Assembly (NCBI GenBank): GCA_964599405.1 | Contig: CAZRED010000001.1 | Span: forward strand, 75,528-139,527 | DNA: 64,000 bases | Reading direction: 5' to 3' | Source: an uncultured Candidatus Saccharibacteria bacterium | GTDB lineage: Bacteria; Patescibacteriota; UBA1384; 2-12-FULL-50-11 | In this document: positions 33,306-42,107 of the stretch, piece by piece | Layout of the letters: the number at the start of each line of letters is the position of its first letter | Position numbering within the stretch: the first letter of the stretch is position 1 | Position numbers and translations under genes: made by a program | Notes under the pieces: model-generated | Databases searched by the model: none | What the model was told of the DNA's origin: nothing | Seen by the model: the letters and a program-made list of their open reading frames with translations, nothing else

Positions 33306-33484
33306 CGCCCCTCCTCCATTTATTTAACGATACCGCAATCCGCCAACGCAACAAGCAATATCAAACCAAACGCTAGGCAGGGAGTGGAATTTCTCTTTAG
33401 TTAGTTGGTTAGTTCGGGTTTTTCTTCTATGTGTTTGTCAGTAGTCATTATGGTGTTCTAGCAGTATTAGCGAAGCGTCAGAGT

Positions 33485-34000
33485 TAGAAAGTTAGTTATA
33501 TATTTATAAAGAACTCCCCTTTTTCCATTTCCATACCTTAAAGATAGTCATATTTTGGTGCAACTGCTGCACCAGTTCAAAGCCGGGGTTACAAAGCTTA
33601 GTTATATATTTATAGAGACTCCACTTTGGCGATTGTACTTACCTGTTAGAGCGATCTTTTTTGTCTCAGCTGCTGAGACGTTTTGTTAGATGAAACTAAT
33701 GAGTACTAAGTGGTGTAGATATGTATAGAAAGTGTAGTGATTTTTATTGATGAAGCTGTGAATGTCTTGGAAGTGGTATCAGGCCGGATGTTTCTTAGTA
33801 TATATATTAATAAAGACTCTACTTTTTCTTTCAGTTAACCAGGAAATTGAACGAATTTAGGAGCAACAGCTGCTCTTTTTGGGTAGCGAAGCCGAACATT
33901 AGCAGGGGGTCAGTAATATATATAAAGAGTAGTGAATTTTGTTTACTAAACCTGCAAAGATCGGCTTTTCGGTATCAGGCCTGATACCGGTGTCTCCAGG
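33485..34000 (+). repeat. tandem array of 5 degenerate ~105-bp units, each with AT-rich TATAAAG box and downstream hairpin
   Basis: TATA(A/G)AG boxes at 33505, 33611, 33723, 33809, 33921. Hairpins 50-52 nt downstream: GGTGCAactgcTGCACC (33557), GTCTCAGCtgcTGAGAC+GTTTTG (33663), GAGCAacagcTGCTC+TTTTTG (33859), GGTATCAGGccTGATACC (33972). Confidence 0.6.
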
Positions 34001-34153
34001 TAATTAATTGGCGTGCAGTGACGGTATACTTACGAAATAAATCGCTACTCCAACCGCCGCCAGAATTATCGCTACCCACCAAACTGGATTCATGGTTTTA
34101 GTTTAGCAAAAACGGTAGTACCCAACGAATAATCGCTTGTATAGTGGAAGAGT

Positions 34154-35884
34154 CTACGTAGTATCAGTAAAACATACGTTGTAGATCTCGTCGCCCAAAT
34201 CTTTCCAATGACTAGATTTATAATTGAAGGTTTCCGTGGAGAAATCTATTTTTCCAGAAAGTTTACTAAAGCCCTTATCATAGTAAGCGAAGCCATTCAC
34301 CTTATTATTCTCGATCAATATACGCATACAATGAATCAAGCCAGTAATCGTAGTCACGGTCAGCGCTCGGCTAACCTTCTGCTTAGTGGTCCACATATCG
34401 TTCGGTATTTGGTTCTTGAATGCTTTAAGAAACTCATTTATTTCTTTAGTGCAAAATTCTACGTATTCATTTAATAGGGCAGTATCTTTACCGTCTCTAA
34501 GCTCACTCTTTTTCCCTTCACTCCAAACATTAAAAAGCGTGTCCTTCCCTGAAAGCTTAACTACGTGCCTTACTCCGTAGGAAACTATAGATGTTGTTTT
34601 TAGCTTACCCTTGTCGAAAAAGTGTCTTTCGAGAACTTTATCCATTGGGTCAAGCTCAGCAAGTTTATTCATTACCTTCTTGGCTATAGATACCTCGTCG
34701 AACGGATTTACTATTGTATTAATTACTTGACGGAGAGACCCACTGGTTCTTGTCTGTCTATCATTAATTTCTAAAAATAGCTTCGCTTCAAACCTTCCTC
34801 GGTCTTCGAGAGATAGGTCGCTAGGGAAGACAATACCCGTAATCAAAAGGTGCTGCTTATCTCTTAAACTACTAATGTGCGTGTCATGTGCATCATCACC
34901 TTCATGGTATGAAAATACCCTATGTTGTCCGTCGATAATCCCAATGTTCCCGGCAACCTTTGGGATCCTAATTTTTATAGGATCCTTCATTACCCCTGTA
35001 CTTATTGGGAGATTTATCCGGTCGTTACTTTCATACTCAAGAAGTTGTAAGTCATTAGGTAAAGAGACGATGATATTATTTACGAATACCCGACCCTCAC
35101 TAGCAAGGTACTTACGCATATTACGTATTTTGTTACCGAGGATAATTCTTTGATAAACAAAGTCACTATCTTGCCAACCATCCCTTCTCAGTACATAAGC
35201 TTGCTTTAATAAGGTGTTTGGGTCAATTAGAAAAGATACCAGGTTATGCCCACTTGGAAAGCCACTCGGAGTTTCTGGAAGAATAAGGCCAACATAATCA
35301 TCCCCCGGAGAGCCGCTATTCTGTGGCCCTATCTCCTCAAATCCAACCCCGATAAATTTAAATAGTTCGAATCTTGCAGATCTTTTAATCGTTTTTGAGA
35401 GGCTTAAGAAATAACTACGTGACTTGTAATCCATAAAATGAAGGTGCTGATAACGATCTCTAAGTGACTGAGTTACCTCTTCGTGCGAAACATATAAGAA
35501 TGCTAACTTAATATCATGACTAGCGTAGCCCGCGGTAGAATTTTTCCCGTAATTTGGGATTTTGCTCTTAAAAAGCTCAATTAAGTCATTTTGGTTGTTC
35601 TTGCAGTTAGTAAAGAACTCAGCTTTCTTCCGAAGGTGATCAGTATCACTTGTTGTAGTATCCTCTACGATAAGAATAAGGTTCTCGAAAACAAAAACAT
35701 TATCTAGATCGCTTTCTTGTCCACATAGATTAATTTTAAAGTCTTCGGCGACTGCCATAAATCCCATATTGCTAAAGGTAGTGCGTACGTCCCTTCTAAT
35801 TTTTCTCTTAAGGCCTAATCTTTCACTGTCTGATAGGTTAGGCATATTATTTATTGTCTTGATGCATAATTCTCTTATACCCAA
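34154..35884 (-). CDS. DGQHR-domain (DndB-like, ParB/Srx fold) protein
   Basis: GIIDGQHRV at aa 318-322, codons verified at 34919-34933. 576 aa with about 220 aa N-terminal domain of unknown function. Overlaps upstream MTase stop. Confidence 0.7.
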   Translation of the reverse strand: MGIRELCIKTINNMPNLSDSERLGLKRKIRRDVRTTFSNMGFMAVAEDFKINLCGQESDLDNVFVFENLILIVEDTTTSDTDHLRKKAEFFTNCKNNQNDLIELFKSKIPNYGKNSTAGYASHDIKLAFLYVSHEEVTQSLRDRYQHLHFMDYKSRSYFLSLSKTIKRSARFELFKFIGVGFEEIGPQNSGSPGDDYVGLILPETPSGFPSGHNLVSFLIDPNTLLKQAYVLRRDGWQDSDFVYQRIILGNKIRNMRKYLASEGRVFVNNIIVSLPNDLQLLEYESNDRINLPISTGVMKDPIKIRIPKVAGNIGIIDGQHRVFSYHEGDDAHDTHISSLRDKQHLLITGIVFPSDLSLEDRGRFEAKLFLEINDRQTRTSGSLRQVINTIVNPFDEVSIAKKVMNKLAELDPMDKVLERHFFDKGKLKTTSIVSYGVRHVVKLSGKDTLFNVWSEGKKSELRDGKDTALLNEYVEFCTKEINEFLKAFKNQIPNDMWTTKQKVSRALTVTTITGLIHCMRILIENNKVNGFAYYDKGFSKLSGKIDFSTETFNYKSSHWKDLGDEIYNVCFTDTT

Positions 35885-36770
35885 ACTTCAAATATTTTTT
35901 ATTAAGCTCTGCCCCCACTGAGTTTCTGCCCTGCTTTTCGGCAGCGACAGAGGTAGTAAACGTACCAGCGAAGGGGTCGAAAATCGTATCTCCCTTATTG
36001 CTACTCACTTTTATAAAGAGCTCTAGCAAATTCAGTGGCAGTTGGCATGGATGGTCTTTCTCCTTCAGCTCGCCCGGCTCCATGGACCGAAACTTATTTC
36101 CAAGGTTCCGAACTCGATCCTTGGAATTATTCTTCATCATGTGCATATCTATAGTATCGATTAGGCCATCTTGTAGCTCTATCAGATCAAGGAACCTTAA
36201 TAAGTCGTATGAGGTTCTGCCCTTAGATCCTTCTGCGATACGTTTCCGTACTACTGGCGCGGTTGGATTTTTATAGTGCTGTACTAAATTTTCTCTATTG
36301 AAGACATAGCCCTTCGTTGACTTAGTAAAAAATAAAACAGACCTCTGGCTTCGCGTATAATTATTTTTTGAATGCCCAATATTTGTGGGGTAGTGCCATG
36401 TAATCCATCTCCGGTAATTAAGACCTAGCTCATCTTGAAGATAGGGCAGAAGGCGGGCATTAATCTCGGGGTAACTAATTAGGTAGAAGCTCCCCTTGTC
36501 ACTTAAGATTCTTGGGATATCGCGCAATTTGGCTTCTAGCCAGGCATAATACTCCTTCCAGGACTTGGAGTCGTCAAAGCTACCATAGTCGAGCCCCATA
36601 TTGTAGGGAGGATCCGTAATAATGAGGTCTATACTTTTACTAGGGATCTGACTGATTATCTGTTCGCAATCACCTAGCACGAGGATGTGTCCTGTTTTTT
36701 CTTTCTCAATAAAGTCAAAGGCAAAGCCTTGCTTGCTTATAGGTTTGAGGATAGATTTTATATTCCTCAT
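35847..36770 (-). CDS. DNA methyltransferase (beta class, DPPY; N4-C or N6-A)
   Basis: LIITDPPYNMG motif IV, N6_N4_Mtase-like; 307 aa. Confidence 0.75.
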   Translation of the reverse strand: MRNIKSILKPISKQGFAFDFIEKEKTGHILVLGDCEQIISQIPSKSIDLIITDPPYNMGLDYGSFDDSKSWKEYYAWLEAKLRDIPRILSDKGSFYLISYPEINARLLPYLQDELGLNYRRWITWHYPTNIGHSKNNYTRSQRSVLFFTKSTKGYVFNRENLVQHYKNPTAPVVRKRIAEGSKGRTSYDLLRFLDLIELQDGLIDTIDMHMMKNNSKDRVRNLGNKFRSMEPGELKEKDHPCQLPLNLLELFIKVSSNKGDTIFDPFAGTFTTSVAAEKQGRNSVGAELNKKYLKFGYKRIMHQDNK

Positions 36771-36807
36771 AAGCCTATTCTATACAAATATTCTCGAAAA
36801 GAAGTGA

Positions 36808-37899
36808 CTATTTTTTGCCTTTGCGGCGGTTATCGTCGCGGCAGAGCATTTGGCAGTTATCGGCATTAGTTTTTCCGCCCTCAACCCACGGCGTAATGTG
36901 GTCGGCTTCCATTTCTTCAATCTCAAAATGTTTACCACAATCCGGACAAACACCTTTCTGTCGTTCAAAGGCCTCGCGTTTCATGTTATCGGTAAACGCC
37001 CGAATATTTAGACACTTTTCTTCACGGGTTAGAACATATTCATAGATACCGGACTTTTTTGTTACGTCTTCGTCCATCATCAACTGTGTAACTTCCGCTT
37101 CCAGCTTGTCGGTATCGAACTTATCGTCCTTAAATTGATTGTAAAATCTGCCCCAATCCAAACCTTTCATTTCTTTTCGATACTTCGGAAAAGTCAGACG
37201 TGTCCAGCTTATAACATTTTGGAAGTACGACCAAAGCTCATTGGCATTTTGGTCGTGTTGGTGCTTGGCCATGTAGTCTTCTATTTTTCCGTCGTTAATC
37301 CAAGCTAGCGTAGTTTCCAGTATCTCTTGCCGAATTGGCGAACCGTTCACTAGCTGCCCGCCATCGCTAGCTAGCAAATAAGCTGCACAGTTAGATTTGC
37401 TGAATTTCAGTTTGGCGTCACTTAGCCATGGTCCAGTATAAATCGCATTGCGGAGCTCTTGGTCGGTTAATTTTTCGCCAGCGATGTTAATGATTCTGAA
37501 CCAATCCAGTCTTTCTTTGTCGGTGCCTTCGCACCAGTAAATCATCAGCTCATAGTCCTGAATTTGCTTCTGTTCCTCATCAGTTAGGTTGTGGAAAAAG
37601 CGATCTTTGAGCGAAAAATCACCGTTGACATATTGCCCAATACTTATTGTTCGTTGCTGGCCGTCCATAACTTCAAAGTTCCCTTGGTCGGTTTTGACCC
37701 AATACATTACGTTCAGCGGAAAACCATTTTTAATCGTTTCTATTACTGCGTCGCGCTGCTTGTCTTTATAAACAAATTCACGTTGGTATCTTGGGCGGAT
37801 GTCGAGTTTACCACCGTAAGCTATGACGCCTTCCTCGGCGCTGTCTTTGTAGCCGACGATCACTTCTCGAACAGGAATTCGTTGTAGTTCAATTTTCAT
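36808..37899 (-). CDS. DUF262 (DGQQR NTPase-like, ParB fold) + HNH endonuclease; SspE/GmrSD-like
   Basis: VMDGQQRTISIGQY (codons verified at 37651-37665). C-terminal CPDCGKHF...ADHITPW...NADNCQMLCRDDNRRKG HNH. Confidence 0.75.
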   Translation of the reverse strand: MKIELQRIPVREVIVGYKDSAEEGVIAYGGKLDIRPRYQREFVYKDKQRDAVIETIKNGFPLNVMYWVKTDQGNFEVMDGQQRTISIGQYVNGDFSLKDRFFHNLTDEEQKQIQDYELMIYWCEGTDKERLDWFRIINIAGEKLTDQELRNAIYTGPWLSDAKLKFSKSNCAAYLLASDGGQLVNGSPIRQEILETTLAWINDGKIEDYMAKHQHDQNANELWSYFQNVISWTRLTFPKYRKEMKGLDWGRFYNQFKDDKFDTDKLEAEVTQLMMDEDVTKKSGIYEYVLTREEKCLNIRAFTDNMKREAFERQKGVCPDCGKHFEIEEMEADHITPWVEGGKTNADNCQMLCRDDNRRKGKK

Positions 37900-38983
37900 T
37901 TTGTGTCCTTTTCCTTTGCTTAATTATTATTCTTGCGTATGTCGCTTTGCCGTTGATGATAGCGCCTACATATTTTTTATGCTGTTCATCAAGATATGTT
38001 GGATTCCCTTGTATTAACGAGTCTGACTTCTCTCTCTTGTCTGCAAATAAGCCAATAATTTCAAACTGTTGGGGGTTATATTTATCTAGAAAAGTAATCG
38101 GAACACCCATTGCACCATTCCAATCCATAGGTACGTCTGCAAACTTAGAAACCTCTATCGCATCATAATTGTCGTATTTTGGATATTCTTCAGGCGTGTA
38201 TTTTTTATACAAGTCTACCTCCTCGTGACGCTTGGTGGTGTCAAGGTTTGTGAACCATACTATGCTTCCCATACTGATGTATTTGATGCCATTCTCGATT
38301 TTCTTTCTTGATTCGGTCGGGATATCGTAATCATCAGGAACTTGGAACCACTTTGTGCCACCATTATCATATCCAAGCCACATTTTATTTTCTTTAATAA
38401 GTTTGAAGGTCTCTTTATACGTGATGGCATTCTGGTTACCAAGAATCAAAAACTTTTTATCATATTCCATAAGCTGCGCCACATACTCGCGAAACAATGA
38501 AAACGGCGGGTTTGTCACTACGATATCGGCTTCTTTGAGCAGCTCTATACACTCATGACTTCTAAAATCACCGTTGCCTTGTAAGGACGATGAAGTATTT
38601 TTAGTGTGCTTTATAAGATTCTGAACATCACCCAAATCTACAGCGCCATCACCATCACTGTCAGGCACTTCGTTTACTTCGACTTTAAATGGTTGCTTAC
38701 CATCTGGCTTTAGACCCTCCATCTCGAAGATTGGCAACTGCGTTCCAGCAATAGGCGATTTAGTGTAGCTGGTGGCGATAAGTTTTTTTAAGCCCAAATG
38801 GTTAAAGCTGCTCGCAAAATACTTGAAAAAATTACTCTCATACGGATCGTCACAATTACAAAAAACAACCTTGCTGCGGAATTGATCTTTGTATCGCGTT
38901 AACTCTTTTTCGATATCAGCACGTTGTGTGTAAAACTCGTCCTTTTTCTGCAACTTTGCTGTATGTAAATTATTCTGCGCCAT
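37889..38983 (-). CDS. N6-adenine DNA methyltransferase (NPPF motif)
   Basis: IVVTNPPFSLF motif IV; 364 aa; TAATG coupling with upstream small ORF. Confidence 0.7.
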   Translation of the reverse strand: MAQNNLHTAKLQKKDEFYTQRADIEKELTRYKDQFRSKVVFCNCDDPYESNFFKYFASSFNHLGLKKLIATSYTKSPIAGTQLPIFEMEGLKPDGKQPFKVEVNEVPDSDGDGAVDLGDVQNLIKHTKNTSSSLQGNGDFRSHECIELLKEADIVVTNPPFSLFREYVAQLMEYDKKFLILGNQNAITYKETFKLIKENKMWLGYDNGGTKWFQVPDDYDIPTESRKKIENGIKYISMGSIVWFTNLDTTKRHEEVDLYKKYTPEEYPKYDNYDAIEVSKFADVPMDWNGAMGVPITFLDKYNPQQFEIIGLFADKREKSDSLIQGNPTYLDEQHKKYVGAIINGKATYARIIIKQRKRTQNEN

Positions 38984-39252
38984 TAAATTAGCCGGGTGTT
39001 TTTGAGCTTTGCTAGGTAGCTAAAGTCATCTTCTGATATTTTGGGCACAACATTGAACGTTATTTTCGTTTTTGATGTGTCGCTTATTGCACCGCCTAAT
39101 ACTACAAAGTATTTTATCTCTCCCTTAGCTTCTTTTGTTGATTCAACTTCTACCTCAACTTTTATCGCACCCCAAACTACACCGTTCTTAAGATTATTGA
39201 TAAGTTCGTTGGTGAGATTCTCAATGTAAGATGAAAGCTCAACTTTCTCCAT
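38983..39252 (-). CDS. small operon-leading protein of unknown function
   Basis: 89 aa; its stop overlaps the MTase start (TAATG). Confidence 0.45.
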   Translation of the reverse strand: MEKVELSSYIENLTNELINNLKNGVVWGAIKVEVEVESTKEAKGEIKYFVVLGGAISDTSKTKITFNVVPKISEDDFSYLAKLKNTRLI

Positions 39253-39289
39253 TTGCCAAATTCTACTCTTTTTAACCTGAAAAAGCCAG

Positions 39290-39330
39290 GTTTGGGGAAC
39301 AACCCACCCCGGGTGGGTTGTTCAGGGGCT
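39290..39330 (-). terminator. tandem hairpins between HEPN-like gene and defense operon (attenuator/terminator)
   Basis: CAACCCACCccgGGTGGGTTG and AACCTGgctttttCAGGTT. Confidence 0.4.
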
Positions 39331-39408
39331 ATGGTCGCGCGGGACAGATTTGGTCACGGTAGATCGGGTAAATCAACTAATAACATTCTTGCATATGGAA
39401 GGGATTAA

Positions 39409-40131
39409 TTATCTTTTTTTGAATTTTTTACAATTGCAACCATCCGTTAAGCATTCTACAAAAAGAATATTTTTCCCCTTCATTACGAAATGAGCAGCTT
39501 TTGCATGACCGCAGTCACAGATAGCAAACAGACCCTTTTTCCTGCCGAATTCTACTACTTCCTCATTAGATACAACACCATAAGTTTTCGCGAAACTTCT
39601 TTCACTTCTAGAATTAATCTTCTTTGATGCGAGATATTCAACTTTTACCTCTATGCCGTTATCTATCCTGCTCTTTGTCATTCCGTAACCAGTAGCAACT
39701 TGTTTGTCTTCCAATGATTTATTTATCTTATTTAACTCTTGAAAAATCTTTTCGTACCGTGAACATGCCAAACCAAGATGGGAATACTCTATTTCGCTAG
39801 TAAAAAACCTGTGGATTGCCTTATTCCTGACATCATAGAGTTTATTCAGCTCGTCATATATTGATCGGGTGATAATTTTTTTCTCATATGCTAATTGATA
39901 AATTATCCTCTCTGACAAGTAATCGTTTCCTTCTTGAAAAATATATTTCTCAGTAATTCTGTTGGTTTTTTCTTCTAGCTGTTGCTCTAAAACTAGACAA
40001 ATCCGACACTGTGCTTCGACTAGAGAAGAATACAATACCAACCCCTCTATTAACGAGCCATTATCATAAGCCTTATTGAGCAGTAACCTTGTTGCAGCAA
40101 ATGCGGAAATAAAGTTTTCTAACTTTTTCAT
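39409..40131 (-). CDS. HEPN-like (Rx4H) protein with C-terminal Cys-rich zinc ribbon
   Basis: DVRNKAIHR Rx4H motif; C-terminal CDCGH...CLTDGCNC; 240 aa. Starts 23 nt after the dnaK stop. Confidence 0.45.
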   Translation of the reverse strand: MKKLENFISAFAATRLLLNKAYDNGSLIEGLVLYSSLVEAQCRICLVLEQQLEEKTNRITEKYIFQEGNDYLSERIIYQLAYEKKIITRSIYDELNKLYDVRNKAIHRFFTSEIEYSHLGLACSRYEKIFQELNKINKSLEDKQVATGYGMTKSRIDNGIEVKVEYLASKKINSRSERSFAKTYGVVSNEEVVEFGRKKGLFAICDCGHAKAAHFVMKGKNILFVECLTDGCNCKKFKKR

Positions 40132-40142
40132 TTACCCAAGAG

Positions 40143-40162
40143 AAAGAGAGCTGGTTAGCTCT
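40143..40162 (-). terminator. weak hairpin overlapping dnaK stop (partial terminator, read-through likely)
   Basis: AGAGAGCTggttAGCTCTCT followed on the minus strand by TTCTCTT then ATG of the HEPN-like gene. Confidence 0.35.
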
Positions 40163-42107
40163 CTTTCTTGTCTTCTCCTTTATTTTCTTCTTTTGGTTCG
40201 TCCTCTTTTGGAGGTTGCTCGGCCGATCCGCCAGCTGGCGGAGTATCAGGCGAGGCCGGAGGGGTTTCCCCACCCTTTGGCTCGTCCTTAGTTTCAGAAT
40301 AGGCGGCGGATCCGACTTTTTGGAGGGCGGTGGAGAGTTTTTCGGCTTCCGCGCTAATTTTCTCTTTATCGTCACCAGGGAGGACGCCGCGAACGGCGGT
40401 GATAGCGTCTTCGACCTCCCGCTTGTCGTCCGGTTTTACTTTATCGCCCAAATCTTTCAGGGATTTTTCGGCGGTGTGGATGAGCCCTTCGGCCAAGTTG
40501 CGGGTTTCGACCAGCTCTTTTTTCTTAGCGTCGTCGGCCGCGTGTTTTTCGGCTTCGGCTTTCATCTTCTCTACTTCCTCATCCGACAGGCCGCTGGAAG
40601 CGGTGATGGTGATTTTCTGCTCTTTACCGGTGGCTTTGTCTTTAGCCGAGACGTTCAAGATGCCATTTGCATCAATGTCGAACGTAACCTCAACTTGCGG
40701 AACGCCTCGGGGAGCGGGCGGAATGCCGTCGAGCATAAATTTGCCGAGCGTCCGGTTGTCGCTGGCCATGGGCCGTTCGCCTTGGAGAACGTGGACTTCC
40801 ACCGAAGTCTGGTTGTCAGCGGCGGTGGAGAAGGTTTCGGTTTTGCTGGTGGGGATAGTGGTGTTGCGGGTAATCAGCGCCGTCATGACACCGCCGAGAG
40901 TTTCCAAGCCAAGAGTGAGCGGAGTAACGTCGAGCAGCAGAATATCTTTGACTTCGCCGGATAATACGCCGCCCTGGAGAGCCGCGCCAAGCGCTACCGC
41001 TTCGTCCGGGTTAACGCCTTTGCCTGGCTCTTTGCCAAAAACATCCTTTACGATTTGCTGAATTAACGGCATGCGGGTCATCCCACCGACAAGGATTACT
41101 TCGTCGACGTCGCCTTTGGAGAGCTTGGCGTCTTTGAGAGCCGCTTCGGCAATCGGACCGGTTTTTTTAATCAGGTCGCCGACGAGCGCTTCCAGTTTGG
41201 CTCGGCTTAAGTTCATTACTAAGTTCTTTGGACCGTCGGCATCAGCGGAGATAAACGGCAGGTTAATCTCGGATTCCTGGGTAGTGGAGAGCTCGATCTT
41301 GGCTTTTTCGGCTCCTTCTTTGATGCGCTGCATCGCCATAGCGTCACCACGTAGATCCACGCCTTCTTTAGTTTTAAATTCTTCGACAATCCAATCCATC
41401 AAGCGCAGGTCAATATCGTCACCGCCCAAGTGGGTGTCGCCGTTAGTGGAGAGTACTTCGAAGCTGGACTCGCCGTCGGCTTCGCCGACTTCTATAATGG
41501 TGATATCAAAGGTACCGCCACCGAAGTCATAAACAGCGATTTTTTGGTCTTTTTTGTCTTCTTTACCCAAGCCATAAGCCAGAGCGGCGGCAGTTGGTTC
41601 GTTGATAATGCGTTTAACCTCTAAACCAGCGATCTTACCGGCATCTTTAGTGGCTTGGCGCTGGGAGTCGGTAAAGTAAGCCGGGACGGTAATCACCGCT
41701 CCGTCAACTTTTTCGCCCAAGTAACTTTCGGCGTCAGCTTTAATTTTCGAGAGGATCATCGCCGAGACTTCTTGCGGAGAGTATTCGGCATCGCCCATCT
41801 TGACTTTGACGCCTTCGCCGCCTTTAACGATTTTGTACGGCATTAGCTTGATGTCGCGTTGAACTTCTTCGTCTTCAAACTTGCGGCCAATAAGGCGCTT
41901 AACCGAGTAAACGGTATTTTCCGGATTAGTAACGGCTTGGCGCTTGGCGAGTTGGCCAACGAGGCGTTCACCCTTTTTGTTAAACGCGACAATGGATGGA
42001 ATGAGGTTACCCCCTTCGGCAGAAGGGATCATTTTGGCTTTGCCGCCTTCCATAACGGCGACGGCTGAGTTGGTAGTTCCTAAGTCAATTCCGATGATTT
42101 TAGGCAT
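40155..42107 (-). CDS. dnaK: molecular chaperone DnaK (Hsp70)
   Basis: [22 protein letters not shown], full-length 650 aa; SD AAGGGGT. Confidence 0.95.

What the first reader, a model, noticed from the sequence alone, without database searches (positions are those of the whole stretch)
34154..40131. Candidate undescribed defense module: HEPN-like / small protein / N6A-MTase / DUF262(DGQQR)-HNH / DPPY-MTase / DGQHR protein in one coupled operon
Six co-oriented minus-strand genes with overlapping or closely spaced junctions (TAATG at 38983; 11-nt overlap at 37889-37899; 37-nt gap; overlap at 35845-35849). Together they encode:
- two DNA methyltransferases of different classes (NPPF gamma-type and DPPY beta-type);
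- an SspE/GmrSD-like protein with a DGQQR nucleotide-binding DUF262 domain fused to an HNH nuclease;
- a 576-aa DGQHR (DndB-like) protein whose ParB/Srx-fold core follows about 220 aa of unassignable sequence.

No dndACDE, sspABCD, brx, pgl or dpd genes accompany them. DUF262-HNH effectors normally restrict modified DNA, so pairing one with two MTases and a DndB-like sensor is atypical. This may be a methylation-based self-marking system read out by two ParB-fold proteins. The segment is conspicuously AT-rich relative to its flanks, which suggests recent acquisition.
Basis: partly seen in the sequence, partly recalled or inferred. Interest (0 to 1): 0.9.

Follow-up and report, generated by a model that had tools for sequence, protein, structure and literature searches.

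The report
Defence island: two restriction-modification pairs
The six genes are real, but they are a patchwork of independent mobile defence modules rather than one new system: a widespread restriction-modification pair, a second methylase-plus-nuclease pair whose nuclease family has never been characterised, a stand-alone HEPN protein and an orphan small gene.

Summary
The six minus-strand ORFs, their motifs (NPPF, DGQQR+HNH, DPPY, DGQHR), the tight junctions and the low GC content are all confirmed. The reading as one integrated six-gene system is not supported.

Gene censuses split the cluster into modules:
- **C+D** (EcoRI-family methylase + DUF262-HNH). D matches a PADLOC Type II restriction-enzyme profile full-length (E 5e-144). 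It sits next to a C homolog in 30 of 30 other loci and on about 50 plasmids, never with A, B, E or F.
- **E+F** (beta-class methylase + 563-aa DGQHR protein). This is a self-contained pair found in 252 species genomes of bacteria and archaea. The methylase abuts F in at least 70 of 80 loci, never with A-D.
- **A** is a HEPN-fold protein separated from B by a 156-nt spacer carrying a host repeat element. **B** is an orphan.

E+F is best read as an uncharacterised restriction-modification pair, possibly NTP-gated, that current defence profiles miss. Close relatives lose synteny exactly after dnaK, so this site is a variable hotspot in a Patescibacteria lineage. Interest is moderate and rests on E+F.

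The parts
39409..40131 (-). Gene A: 240-aa stand-alone HEPN-fold protein (R102-x4-H107 in RNKAIHRF) with a C-terminal Cys/His cluster. It is probably an RNase-type effector and forms its own unit.
39297..39323 (.). Perfect 12-bp palindromic hairpin (GAACAACCCACC-CGG-GGTGGGTTGTTC) in the 156-nt A-B spacer. It is a host-lineage intergenic repeat or terminator-like element that separates A from B-F.
   Evidence: Sequence and fold. The same element occurs twice in intergenic positions of the related genome locus L121 at 81-84% identity. Spacer GC is 0.468, closer to the host (about 0.50) than to the island average of 0.398.
38983..39252 (-). Gene B: 89-aa orphan ORF, translationally coupled to C (TAATG). 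It resembles Trypco2 weakly. Function unknown.
   Evidence: Pfam Trypco2 21.6 bits, below the gathering score of 24.2. No homolog in any fetched locus or in a metagenome scan. No match to solved structures.
37889..38983 (-). Gene C: gamma-class N6-adenine DNA methyltransferase of the EcoRI family (NPPF). It is the modification half of the C+D Type II restriction-modification pair.
   Evidence: Pfam EcoRI_methylase E 5e-146, profile positions 1-344 of 345. PADLOC MTase_II E 5e-129. A C homolog lies next to every D homolog examined.
36808..37899 (-). Gene D: DUF262 (ParB-like, DGQQR) + HNH nuclease. It is the restriction half of the C+D pair.
   Evidence: GmrSD_N and HNH above the gathering score. 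PADLOC REase_II PDLC03418 E 4.8e-144, covering residues 1-363 of the protein and 1-372 of 372 profile positions. More than 8000 relatives, the top 120 at 78-100% identity and mostly from Patescibacteria. Paired with C in 30 of 30 loci and more conserved than C in all of them. Found on 50 plasmid records.
35847..36770 (-). Gene E: beta-class amino-methyltransferase (DPPY, then FxGxG at the C-terminus), probably N6-adenine. It is the modification half of the E+F pair.
   Evidence: Pfam N6_N4_Mtase E 5e-45. Closest solved relatives are M.MboIIA and M.RsrI. A beta-class methylase abuts F homologs in at least 70 of 80 loci.
34154..35845 (-). Gene F: 563 aa from the ATG at 35845 (576 aa from the TTG at 35884). 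The domain spans below are read from the model's secondary structure, the profile matches and the conservation pattern, and are approximate:
- N-terminal PD-(D/E)xK nuclease domain, ~20-180.
- DGQHR/ParB-like domain, ~200-420.
- Helical C-terminal domain.

F is the candidate restriction endonuclease of the E+F pair.
33306..40131 (.). Low-GC variable island between a gene for a 259-aa predicted membrane protein and dnaK.
   Evidence: GC 0.398 against 0.497 +/- 0.026 elsewhere. Synteny with related Patescibacteria contigs L121 and L122 (75-82% nt identity) ends at 40141, just after the dnaK stop. Those genomes carry different genes there.

Best explanation
The segment is a horizontally acquired defence island, downstream of dnaK in a Patescibacteria genome. 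It was assembled from independent modules.

1. **A** is a stand-alone HEPN-fold protein, a putative RNase effector.
2. **B** is an orphan small ORF of unknown role that rides on the C-D transcript.
3. **C+D** is a widespread mobile Type II restriction-modification pair. C, an EcoRI-family methylase, marks adenines in its target site. D, a DUF262-HNH enzyme, cuts unmarked DNA.
4. **E+F** is a second, self-contained pair that behaves like a restriction-modification system. E, a beta-class methylase, marks host DNA. F cuts unmarked incoming DNA with its N-terminal FokI-like PD-(D/E)xK domain. F's DGQHR (ParB-fold) domain and helical C-terminus would supply DNA binding and probably an NTP-dependent switch.

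**Shown:** gene content, domain folds, motif conservation, pair-wise co-occurrence, and independence of the modules.

**Inferred:** cleavage by D and F, protection by C and E, and NTP gating.
For: **Module independence**
- 0 of 80 F loci carry A, B, C or a D ortholog. Only three have distant DUF262 hits.
- 0 of 30 D loci carry A, B or F.
- The closest F relatives (60-64% identity) have only the methylase as a constant neighbour, with 1-3 nt spacing. Their settings vary: a defence-island-like gene neighbourhood, a site next to a serine recombinase, or inside a Type I hsdR-hsdM...hsdS operon.
- The E+F pair also occurs alone on a Phyllobacterium plasmid, and beside the integrase and repressor of a temperate Akkermansia phage.

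**C+D as a restriction-modification pair**
- Full-length PADLOC REase_II and MTase_II hits.
- Pairing in 30 of 30 loci.
- 50 plasmid records.

**F as a nuclease**
- Confident model.
- Invariant acidic residues, and an invariant DGQHR P-motif.
- DGQHR/DndB-like proteins bind ATP/GTP (bioRxiv 10.1101/2025.10.10.680097).

**Acquisition**
- GC shift.
- Synteny break at 40141.
- A host repeat element lies between A and B.
Against: - No enzyme activity was tested.
- F lacks the canonical lysine of (D/E)xK: the motif reads E74-x-T76. Catalysis would have to rely on H83 or K87 from the next helix.
- F matches no known restriction-enzyme profile.
- F is about equally conserved whichever methylase class it is paired with (37-44% identity between classes). 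Its partner methylases fall into at least four subfamilies that are only 19-27% identical: SPPY short, SPPY long, DPPY and DPPF. This is unusual for classical sequence-matched Type II pairs and leaves open how specificity is matched.
- I could not name the characterised enzyme behind the PADLOC profile that D matches.
- B-C-D-E-F may still be co-transcribed, so functional cross-talk in this genome cannot be excluded.
Confidence: 0.7

Rival explanations
1. All six genes form one integrated, undescribed system in which two methylases self-mark DNA and two ParB-fold proteins (D and F) read the marks.
For: The genes are co-oriented and B to F are tightly spaced. Both D and F carry ParB-like domains.
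Against: The combination was found nowhere else. C+D and E+F each recur alone in many unrelated genomes, plasmids and phages. A is separated from B by a spacer carrying a host repeat element. B has no relatives.
Confidence: 0.04
2. E+F is not a classical sequence-matched Type II pair. F would be an NTP-gated enzyme whose ParB-fold domain acts as a switch or clamp. Either F is guided by the methylase, in a Type III-like Mod-to-Res logic, or NTP binding dimerises the ParB-fold domains and brings two FokI-like cleavage domains together on unmethylated DNA. This would explain why F stays conserved while its methylase partners are swapped.
For: - The gene order is methylase then F, with 1-3 nt spacing.
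- F is conserved at 37-44% identity across methylase classes that are only 19-27% identical, and the classes are interleaved on the F tree.
- The DGQHR P-motif is invariant.
- The best structural matches of the nuclease domain include the cleavage-domain-containing chains of FokI and BspD6I, whose cleavage modules are known from the literature (not tested here) to be non-specific.
- ParB-fold proteins, including a DndB-like protein, bind NTPs (bioRxiv 10.1101/2025.10.10.680097).
Against: - The partner methylases are small (~300-430 aa) and resemble stand-alone Type II beta-methylases. They do not resemble the larger Type III Mod subunits (size recalled from the literature, not measured here).
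- Swapping between 20%-identical methylases argues against a conserved protein-protein interface.
- All members could simply share one recognition site that contains both A and C.
- There are no biochemical data.
Confidence: 0.15
3. F is not a restriction nuclease. It would be either a DndB-like NTP-dependent regulator of the methylase, or a suicide/guard toxin held in check by the methylase.
For: - DndB, the best-studied DGQHR protein, is reported to be an ATP-modulated repressor (PMC4507180; PMC10853773 discusses alternatives).
- F's catalytic motif lacks the canonical lysine.
Against: - A 180-aa nuclease-fold domain with invariant D61, E74 and H83 across bacteria and archaea is hard to explain for a repressor.
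- F lies downstream of the methylase and is translationally coupled to it, unlike dndB.
- The pair behaves as a mobile cassette, like restriction-modification systems.
Confidence: 0.08
4. D is a Type IV (modification-dependent, GmrSD/BrxU/SspE-like) enzyme and C is an unrelated neighbour.
For: D has a DUF262 N-terminal domain with DGQQR, as in GmrSD (PMC4619093).
Against: The C-terminus is a classical HNH domain (PF01844). No DUF1524 hit was returned. D is paired with an EcoRI-family methylase in 30 of 30 loci, usually with overlapping or abutting genes. It matches a Type II REase profile full-length.
Confidence: 0.03

Closest known systems
Type II restriction-modification pairs of EcoRI-family methylase + DUF262-HNH endonuclease (PADLOC profiles MTase_II PDLC03297 and REase_II PDLC03418)
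   Same: C and D match these profiles over their full length (E 5e-129 and 5e-144). The gene order, overlap and obligate pairing are the same as in 30 other loci and on plasmids.
   Different: Nothing material. D is one more member, about 80% identical to thousands of Patescibacteria copies. The recognition sequence is unknown, and I could not identify the characterised prototype.
GmrSD / BrxU / SspE family (DUF262 + DUF1524; Type IV modification- or PT-sensing nucleases)
   Same: A ParB-fold NTP-binding domain (DGQQR or DGQHR) fused to a nuclease domain, found in defence islands (PMC4619093, PMC12707154). D shares the DUF262 domain. F shares the architectural logic.
   Different: D carries PF01844 HNH rather than DUF1524, and always has a cognate methylase. 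F carries a PD-(D/E)xK domain at the N-terminus and a DGQHR-type domain, and is paired with a methylase. That implies restriction of unmodified DNA rather than modified DNA.
DndB (dnd phosphorothioation) and DpdB (7-deazaguanine Dpd system) DGQHR proteins
   Same: F passes the generic DGQHR domain model TIGR03187. It keeps the QR pair, the DGQHR motif and the FxxxN motif.
   Different: F scores far below the DndB, TIGR04172 and DpdB cut-offs. It has an extra ~180-aa N-terminal nuclease domain. It has no dnd or dpd neighbours, and its constant partner is a beta-class DNA methylase.
FokI / BspD6I-type cleavage domains of Type IIS restriction enzymes
   Different: The domain is N-terminal rather than C-terminal. 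The lysine position is a threonine, with invariant H83 and near-invariant K87 on the following helix. The recognition module is a ParB-fold domain rather than winged-helix domains.
Type III restriction-modification (beta-class Mod followed by Res)
   Same: The gene order is beta-class methylase then nuclease-plus-NTPase protein. The nuclease subunit is conserved while the methylase is more variable.
   Different: F has no helicase/ATPase motor and carries a ParB-fold domain instead. The methylases are of Type II size. No interdependence has been demonstrated.
HEPN toxins (HepT/MNT, Csm6/Csx1 HEPN domains, AbiA HEPN)
   Same: A has the R-x4-H motif and a four-helix HEPN-like fold.
   Different: No MNT antitoxin or CARF domain is present. 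A carries a C-terminal Cys/His cluster. It belongs to a small family without a Pfam model.

Membership tests
Type II restriction-modification (C+D) | DNA methyltransferase with intact catalytic motifs | tested here: met
   EcoRI_methylase covers profile positions 1-344 of 345, E 5e-146; NPPF is present.
Type II restriction-modification (C+D) | Adjacent endonuclease that matches a known Type II REase family | tested here: met
   PADLOC REase_II PDLC03418, E 4.8e-144, full length. The HNH domain is above the gathering score.
Type II restriction-modification (C+D) | Methylase and nuclease genes conserved as a pair across genomes | tested here: met
   30 of 30 D loci have C adjacent. Plasmid hits are annotated with the EcoRI-family methylase.
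Type II restriction-modification (C+D) | Site-specific cleavage blocked by cognate methylation | not testable with these tools
   Needs biochemistry or a methylome.
GmrSD-type Type IV enzymes (for D) | C-terminal DUF1524 nuclease domain | tested here: not met
   Only PF01844 HNH and HNH_5 were detected; no DUF1524 hit.
GmrSD-type Type IV enzymes (for D) | Acts alone, without a cognate methylase | tested here: not met
   Always paired with an EcoRI-family methylase.
Dnd system (F as DndB) | Passes the DndB-specific models | tested here: not met
   Pfam DndB 23.6 bits against a cut-off of 29.1. TIGR04172 40.9 against 450.
Dnd system (F as DndB) | Neighbouring dndACDE genes | tested here: not met
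   The neighbours are a methylase and non-coding DNA in the window. A methylase is the only constant neighbour across 80 loci.
Dpd system (F as DpdB) | Passes the DpdB equivalog model | tested here: not met
   NF041060 35 bits against a cut-off of 300. PADLOC DpdB matches residues 212-325 only.
DGQHR domain superfamily (F) | TIGR03187 above its cut-off, with QR, DGQHR and FxxxN motifs | tested here: met
   75.8 bits against 58.85. The motifs are invariant in 72 members.
Restriction-modification pair (E+F) | Active-looking methylase conserved next to the candidate nuclease | tested here: met
   E has DPPY and FxGxG. A beta-class methylase abuts F in at least 70 of 80 loci. The remaining loci, apart from one where F lies at the contig end, have a methylase elsewhere in the locus.
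Restriction-modification pair (E+F) | Nuclease domain with a complete PD-(D/E)xK catalytic motif | tested here: inconclusive
Restriction-modification pair (E+F) | Similarity to a known restriction enzyme family | tested here: not met
   No REase profile hit in PADLOC, NCBIfam, Pfam or PHROGs. No solved relative by sequence. Foldseek against the PDB gave E >= 0.026.
HEPN superfamily (A) | R-x4-6-H motif in a four-helix bundle | tested here: met
Trypco2 (B) | Passes the PF19631 gathering score | tested here: inconclusive
   21.6 bits against 24.2, covering profile positions 2-74 of 78.

The most novel reading that the evidence does not exclude
The E+F family would be a new class of restriction system. 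A ParB-fold NTP switch (DGQHR domain) would replace the helicase/ATPase of Type I/III enzymes or the recognition domains of Type IIS enzymes. NTP-driven engagement or sliding of F on unmethylated DNA would bring two FokI-like cleavage domains together. This would make the nuclease largely independent of which methylase it is paired with. It would explain the observed swapping among N4C-type (SPPY) and N6A-type (DPPY/DPPF) partners around a conserved F.
Probability: 0.15. Interest if true: 0.8.

Novelty: new variant of a known kind. Interest (0 to 1): 0.42.

Why it matters
- **The six-gene "new system" dissolves.** The cluster is an ordinary defence island, which guards against over-reading operon-like adjacency.
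- **What remains worth following is the E+F pair.** It is a compact two-gene cassette found in 252 of 185,579 species-representative genomes across bacteria and archaea, and on a temperate phage. The 2023 PADLOC defence profiles miss its nuclease, and no paper I could find describes it.
- **If F is an NTP-gated endonuclease on a ParB fold,** it would extend the newly recognised functional range of ParB-type NTP switches into classical restriction. It would also raise the question of how one conserved nuclease stays matched to very different methylases.
- **The locus also documents a variable defence hotspot** downstream of dnaK in a Patescibacteria lineage.

Tried and rejected
- **Naming the prototype behind D's PADLOC Type II profile.** Literature searches for DUF262/HNH/Type II and for PF13651 gave nothing useful. 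PDB sequence searches returned only generic HNH hits for D and nothing for C.
- **Looking for a published description of a methylase + PD-(D/E)xK-DGQHR pair.** Searches for DGQHR, DndB-like, PF14072/TIGR03187/DpdB, and DndB+methyltransferase+nuclease+antiphage found none. REBASE could not be queried.
- **Foldseek of the F model against the PDB.** No significant match (best E 0.026). It only echoed the nuclease fold.
- **Finding relatives of B.** None in the fetched loci, and none in a metagenome scan.
- **Testing whether the HEPN-like 197-aa protein after dnaK in relative L121 is a homolog of A.** hhalign says it is not.
- **Consensus promoter and terminator scans across the island.** Uninformative, with fewer promoter-like sites than in shuffles. 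The TAGAAT boxes seen by eye 8-10 nt upstream of the B and E start codons remain only a hint of separate promoters.
- **Palindrome avoidance in the 64-kb window, to guess recognition sites.** Only mild depletion of CGCG, GGCC, GATC and TGCA, which is not diagnostic.
- **tRNA and Rfam searches for an integration site at the island borders.** Nothing found.


Full report
**1. Observation**

The window carries six co-oriented minus-strand ORFs at the stated coordinates.

| Gene | Coordinates | Length |
|---|---|---|
| A | 39409-40131 | 240 aa |
| B | 38983-39252 | 89 aa |
| C | 37889-38983 | 364 aa |
| D | 36808-37899 | 363 aa |
| E | 35847-36770 | 307 aa |
| F | 34154-35884 | 576 aa from TTG |

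The junctions were read directly:
- B and C share TAATG.
- C and D overlap by 11 nt.
- The D-E gap is 37 nt.
- E's TAA is followed by one base and then an ATG at 35845. That ATG is the start used in the deposited 563-aa protein (P0001).

- C: EcoRI_methylase, E 5e-146.
- D: GmrSD_N/DUF262 plus HNH, both above the gathering score.
- E: N6_N4_Mtase, E 5e-45.
- F: TIGR03187 DGQHR, 75.8 bits against a cut-off of 58.85.

The segment 33306-40131 has GC 0.398. The rest of the window averages 0.497 (sd 0.026).

Two corrections apply:
- A is separated from B by 156 nt containing a perfect 12-bp hairpin, so A is not part of a tightly coupled unit.
- F's N-terminal ~220 aa can be assigned (section 4).

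**2. C+D is a known kind of Type II restriction-modification pair**

- D matches PADLOC's Type II restriction-enzyme profile PDLC03418 over its full length (E 4.8e-144). C matches MTase_II PDLC03297 (E 4.9e-129).
- D has more than 8000 relatives. The best 120 are all 363-368 aa and 78-100% identical, mostly from Patescibacteria.
- In five genomic loci and 25 viral contigs, every D homolog has a C homolog beside it, nearly always immediately upstream on the same strand. None has A, B or F.
- Fifty plasmid records from many phyla carry D, typically annotated next to an "adenine-specific methyltransferase EcoRI family protein".
D has a classical HNH domain with no DUF1524 hit, and it always has a cognate methylase. 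It fails the membership test for GmrSD-type Type IV enzymes.
- D is more conserved than its methylase in every locus: 46-81% against 39-73%.

**3. E+F is a separate, self-contained pair**

- F belongs to a family of more than 1000 proteins of about 570 aa, labelled at most "DGQHR domain-containing protein".
- A scan of one genome per species confirmed 252 loci in bacteria and archaea. Hosts include Methanoperedens, Thermoplasmatota, Proteobacteria, Bacteroidota, Planctomycetota and CPR.
- In the best 80 loci, a beta-class N6_N4 methylase ORF abuts the F start on the same strand in at least 70. Four more have a divergent SPPY methylase in that position. A few have it convergent, divergent or downstream. 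One locus is cut by the contig end.
- None of the 80 loci has A, B or C. Only three have distant DUF262 proteins nearby.
- The closest F relatives (60-64% identity) show methylase-to-F spacing of 1-3 nt. Their settings are otherwise unrelated: a defence-island-like gene neighbourhood, a site next to a serine recombinase, and a site inside a Type I hsdR-hsdM...hsdS operon.
- The pair also sits alone on a Phyllobacterium plasmid, and beside the integrase and repressor of the temperate Akkermansia phage Chantilly.

**4. What F is**

- An AlphaFold2 model built from 22 family members is confident (pLDDT 85, pTM 0.81).
- Its first ~180 residues form an alpha-beta-beta-beta-alpha core.
- Foldseek finds no solved structure with the whole architecture.
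- Across 72 diverse members, D61, N68, E74 and H83 are invariant. T76 is 99% conserved and K87 is 97% conserved.
- The DGQHR-domain signatures Y244-Q-R246, N270, D318-G-Q-H-R322, F370 and N374 are invariant too.
- The site is therefore a D...E-x-T variant of PD-(D/E)xK, with a conserved His and Lys on the next helix. It is probably active, but this is unproven.
- F fails the specific DndB, TIGR04172 and DpdB models by wide margins. It matches no restriction-enzyme profile in PADLOC, NCBIfam, Pfam or PHROGs.
- E is an intact beta-class methylase, closest to M.MboIIA and M.RsrI.

**5. A puzzling feature of E+F**

The partner methylases fall into at least four subfamilies:

| Class | Count |
|---|---|
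| SPPY, ~315-345 aa | 37 |
| SPPY, ~420-450 aa | 22 |
| DPPY, ~300 aa | 6 (including the window's clade) |
| DPPF | 3 |

- These classes are only 19-27% identical to one another. F stays 37-44% identical across the classes, and the classes are interleaved on the F tree.
- Either all family members share one recognition site that several methylase types can protect, or F's targeting does not depend on a matched recognition domain.
- F shows no large hypervariable domain. The helical C-terminus and residues ~100-160 are the least conserved parts.
- DGQHR/DndB-like proteins bind ATP/GTP (bioRxiv 10.1101/2025.10.10.680097). DUF262 enzymes such as BrxU and SspE are NTP-modulated (PMC12707154). An NTP-gated mechanism is therefore plausible but untested.

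**6. A and B**

- A has an invariant RNKAIHRF (R-x4-H) motif.
- An exhaustive profile search finds 275 representatives. The ~160-aa domain stands alone or sits at the C-terminus of ~330-aa proteins. Several members give weak HepT-like or RiboL-PSP HEPN hits, one above the gathering score.
- A's relatives lie after UvrD-like helicases, PD-(D/E)xK proteins or in a relaxase/TraG element. They never occur with B-F.
- B gives only a sub-threshold Trypco2 hit and has no detectable relatives. Its role is unknown.

**7. Origin of the island**

- The window's DnaK clusters at 90% identity or more with a protein named as coming from a Patescibacteria bacterium.
- Two related contigs (L121 and L122) are syntenic with the window through comEC-grpE-dnaK at 75-82% nucleotide identity. 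The alignment stops at 40141, just past the dnaK stop.
- Downstream of dnaK, one relative carries an unrelated R-x4-H (HEPN-like) 197-aa protein. The other carries a Bro-N / PADLOC PDC-S13 protein.
- The hairpin in the A-B spacer matches two intergenic copies in L121. Host-type sequence therefore separates A from B-F, which points to separate insertions.
- No tRNA gene or Rfam match marks the borders.

**8. Verdict**

The interpretation as one novel six-gene system is not supported.

The cluster is a composite defence island. It contains one Type II restriction-modification pair of a known kind, one uncharacterised but widespread methylase-nuclease pair, a stand-alone HEPN protein and an orphan ORF.

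The E+F pair is a new variant of a known kind and is worth an experiment. Overall interest is moderate.

Noticed in passing
window 33330-34150: An ~820-nt AT-rich non-coding stretch between F's stop and the upstream gene for a 259-aa predicted membrane protein. It holds three direct copies of a ~100-nt unit. Each unit has a box TATATATT(T/A)ATA(A/G)AGA(A/C)(C/T)(T/C)C(C/T)(C/A)CTT(T) at 33497, 33603 and 33801, followed 40-60 nt later by a GC hairpin containing C(A/T)GCTGC. A GGTATCAGGCC(G/T)GAT element is also present at 33775 and 33971. There is no tRNA gene, no Rfam hit and no conserved peptide. These may be tandem small-RNA or promoter-terminator units.
   Followed up: partly
window 39297-39323; L121 8208-8251 and 9244-9306: A perfect 12-bp palindromic hairpin in the A-B spacer recurs twice in intergenic positions of a related Patescibacteria contig. 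It looks like a lineage-specific REP-like or terminator element.
   Followed up: partly
window 40145-40164: An 8-bp stem, AGAGAGCT-AACC-AGCTCTCT, overlaps the dnaK stop codon and is followed by a T-rich run. Gene A starts only 23 nt after dnaK.
   Followed up: no
window 36808-38983; loci L081-L085 and L090-L114: The DUF262-HNH endonuclease is more conserved than its own methylase in all 30 loci: 46-81% against 39-73%. It is extremely abundant at ~80% identity in Patescibacteria. I would have expected the methylase to be the better conserved partner.
   Followed up: partly
L119 4623-7239 (also L120): In a groundwater metagenome contig, the methylase+F pair is inserted inside a Type I operon, between hsdM and hsdS.
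   Followed up: no
L088 (Akkermansia phage Chantilly, ON453895.1 32270-35376): A temperate phage carries an F homolog (annotated as hypothetical) convergent with a DNA methyltransferase gene, next to the integrase and repressor. This looks like a prophage-borne copy of the pair.
   Followed up: no
L121 7596-8189; L122 6518-7348: In close relatives, the slot right after dnaK holds other putative defence genes. One is an unrelated R-x4-H HEPN-like 197-aa protein; the other is a Bro-N / PADLOC PDC-S13 protein. The site is a variable hotspot.
   Followed up: partly
L089 4869-6695 (NZ_CP017943.1): PLSDB's resistance-gene prediction labels an F homolog (DGQHR protein) as the lmrP MFS efflux pump. 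This is evidently an annotation artefact.
   Followed up: no
L028 7962-9650: The F homolog of a Gracilibacteria MAG appears broken into pieces under translation table 11. This is presumably because that lineage reads UGA as a sense codon. Its methylase lies downstream.
   Followed up: no
window 34004-34093 (-): A 29-aa hydrophobic mini-ORF (MNPVWWVAIILAAVGVAIYFVSIPSLHAN) lies just downstream of F. Unexamined.
   Followed up: no
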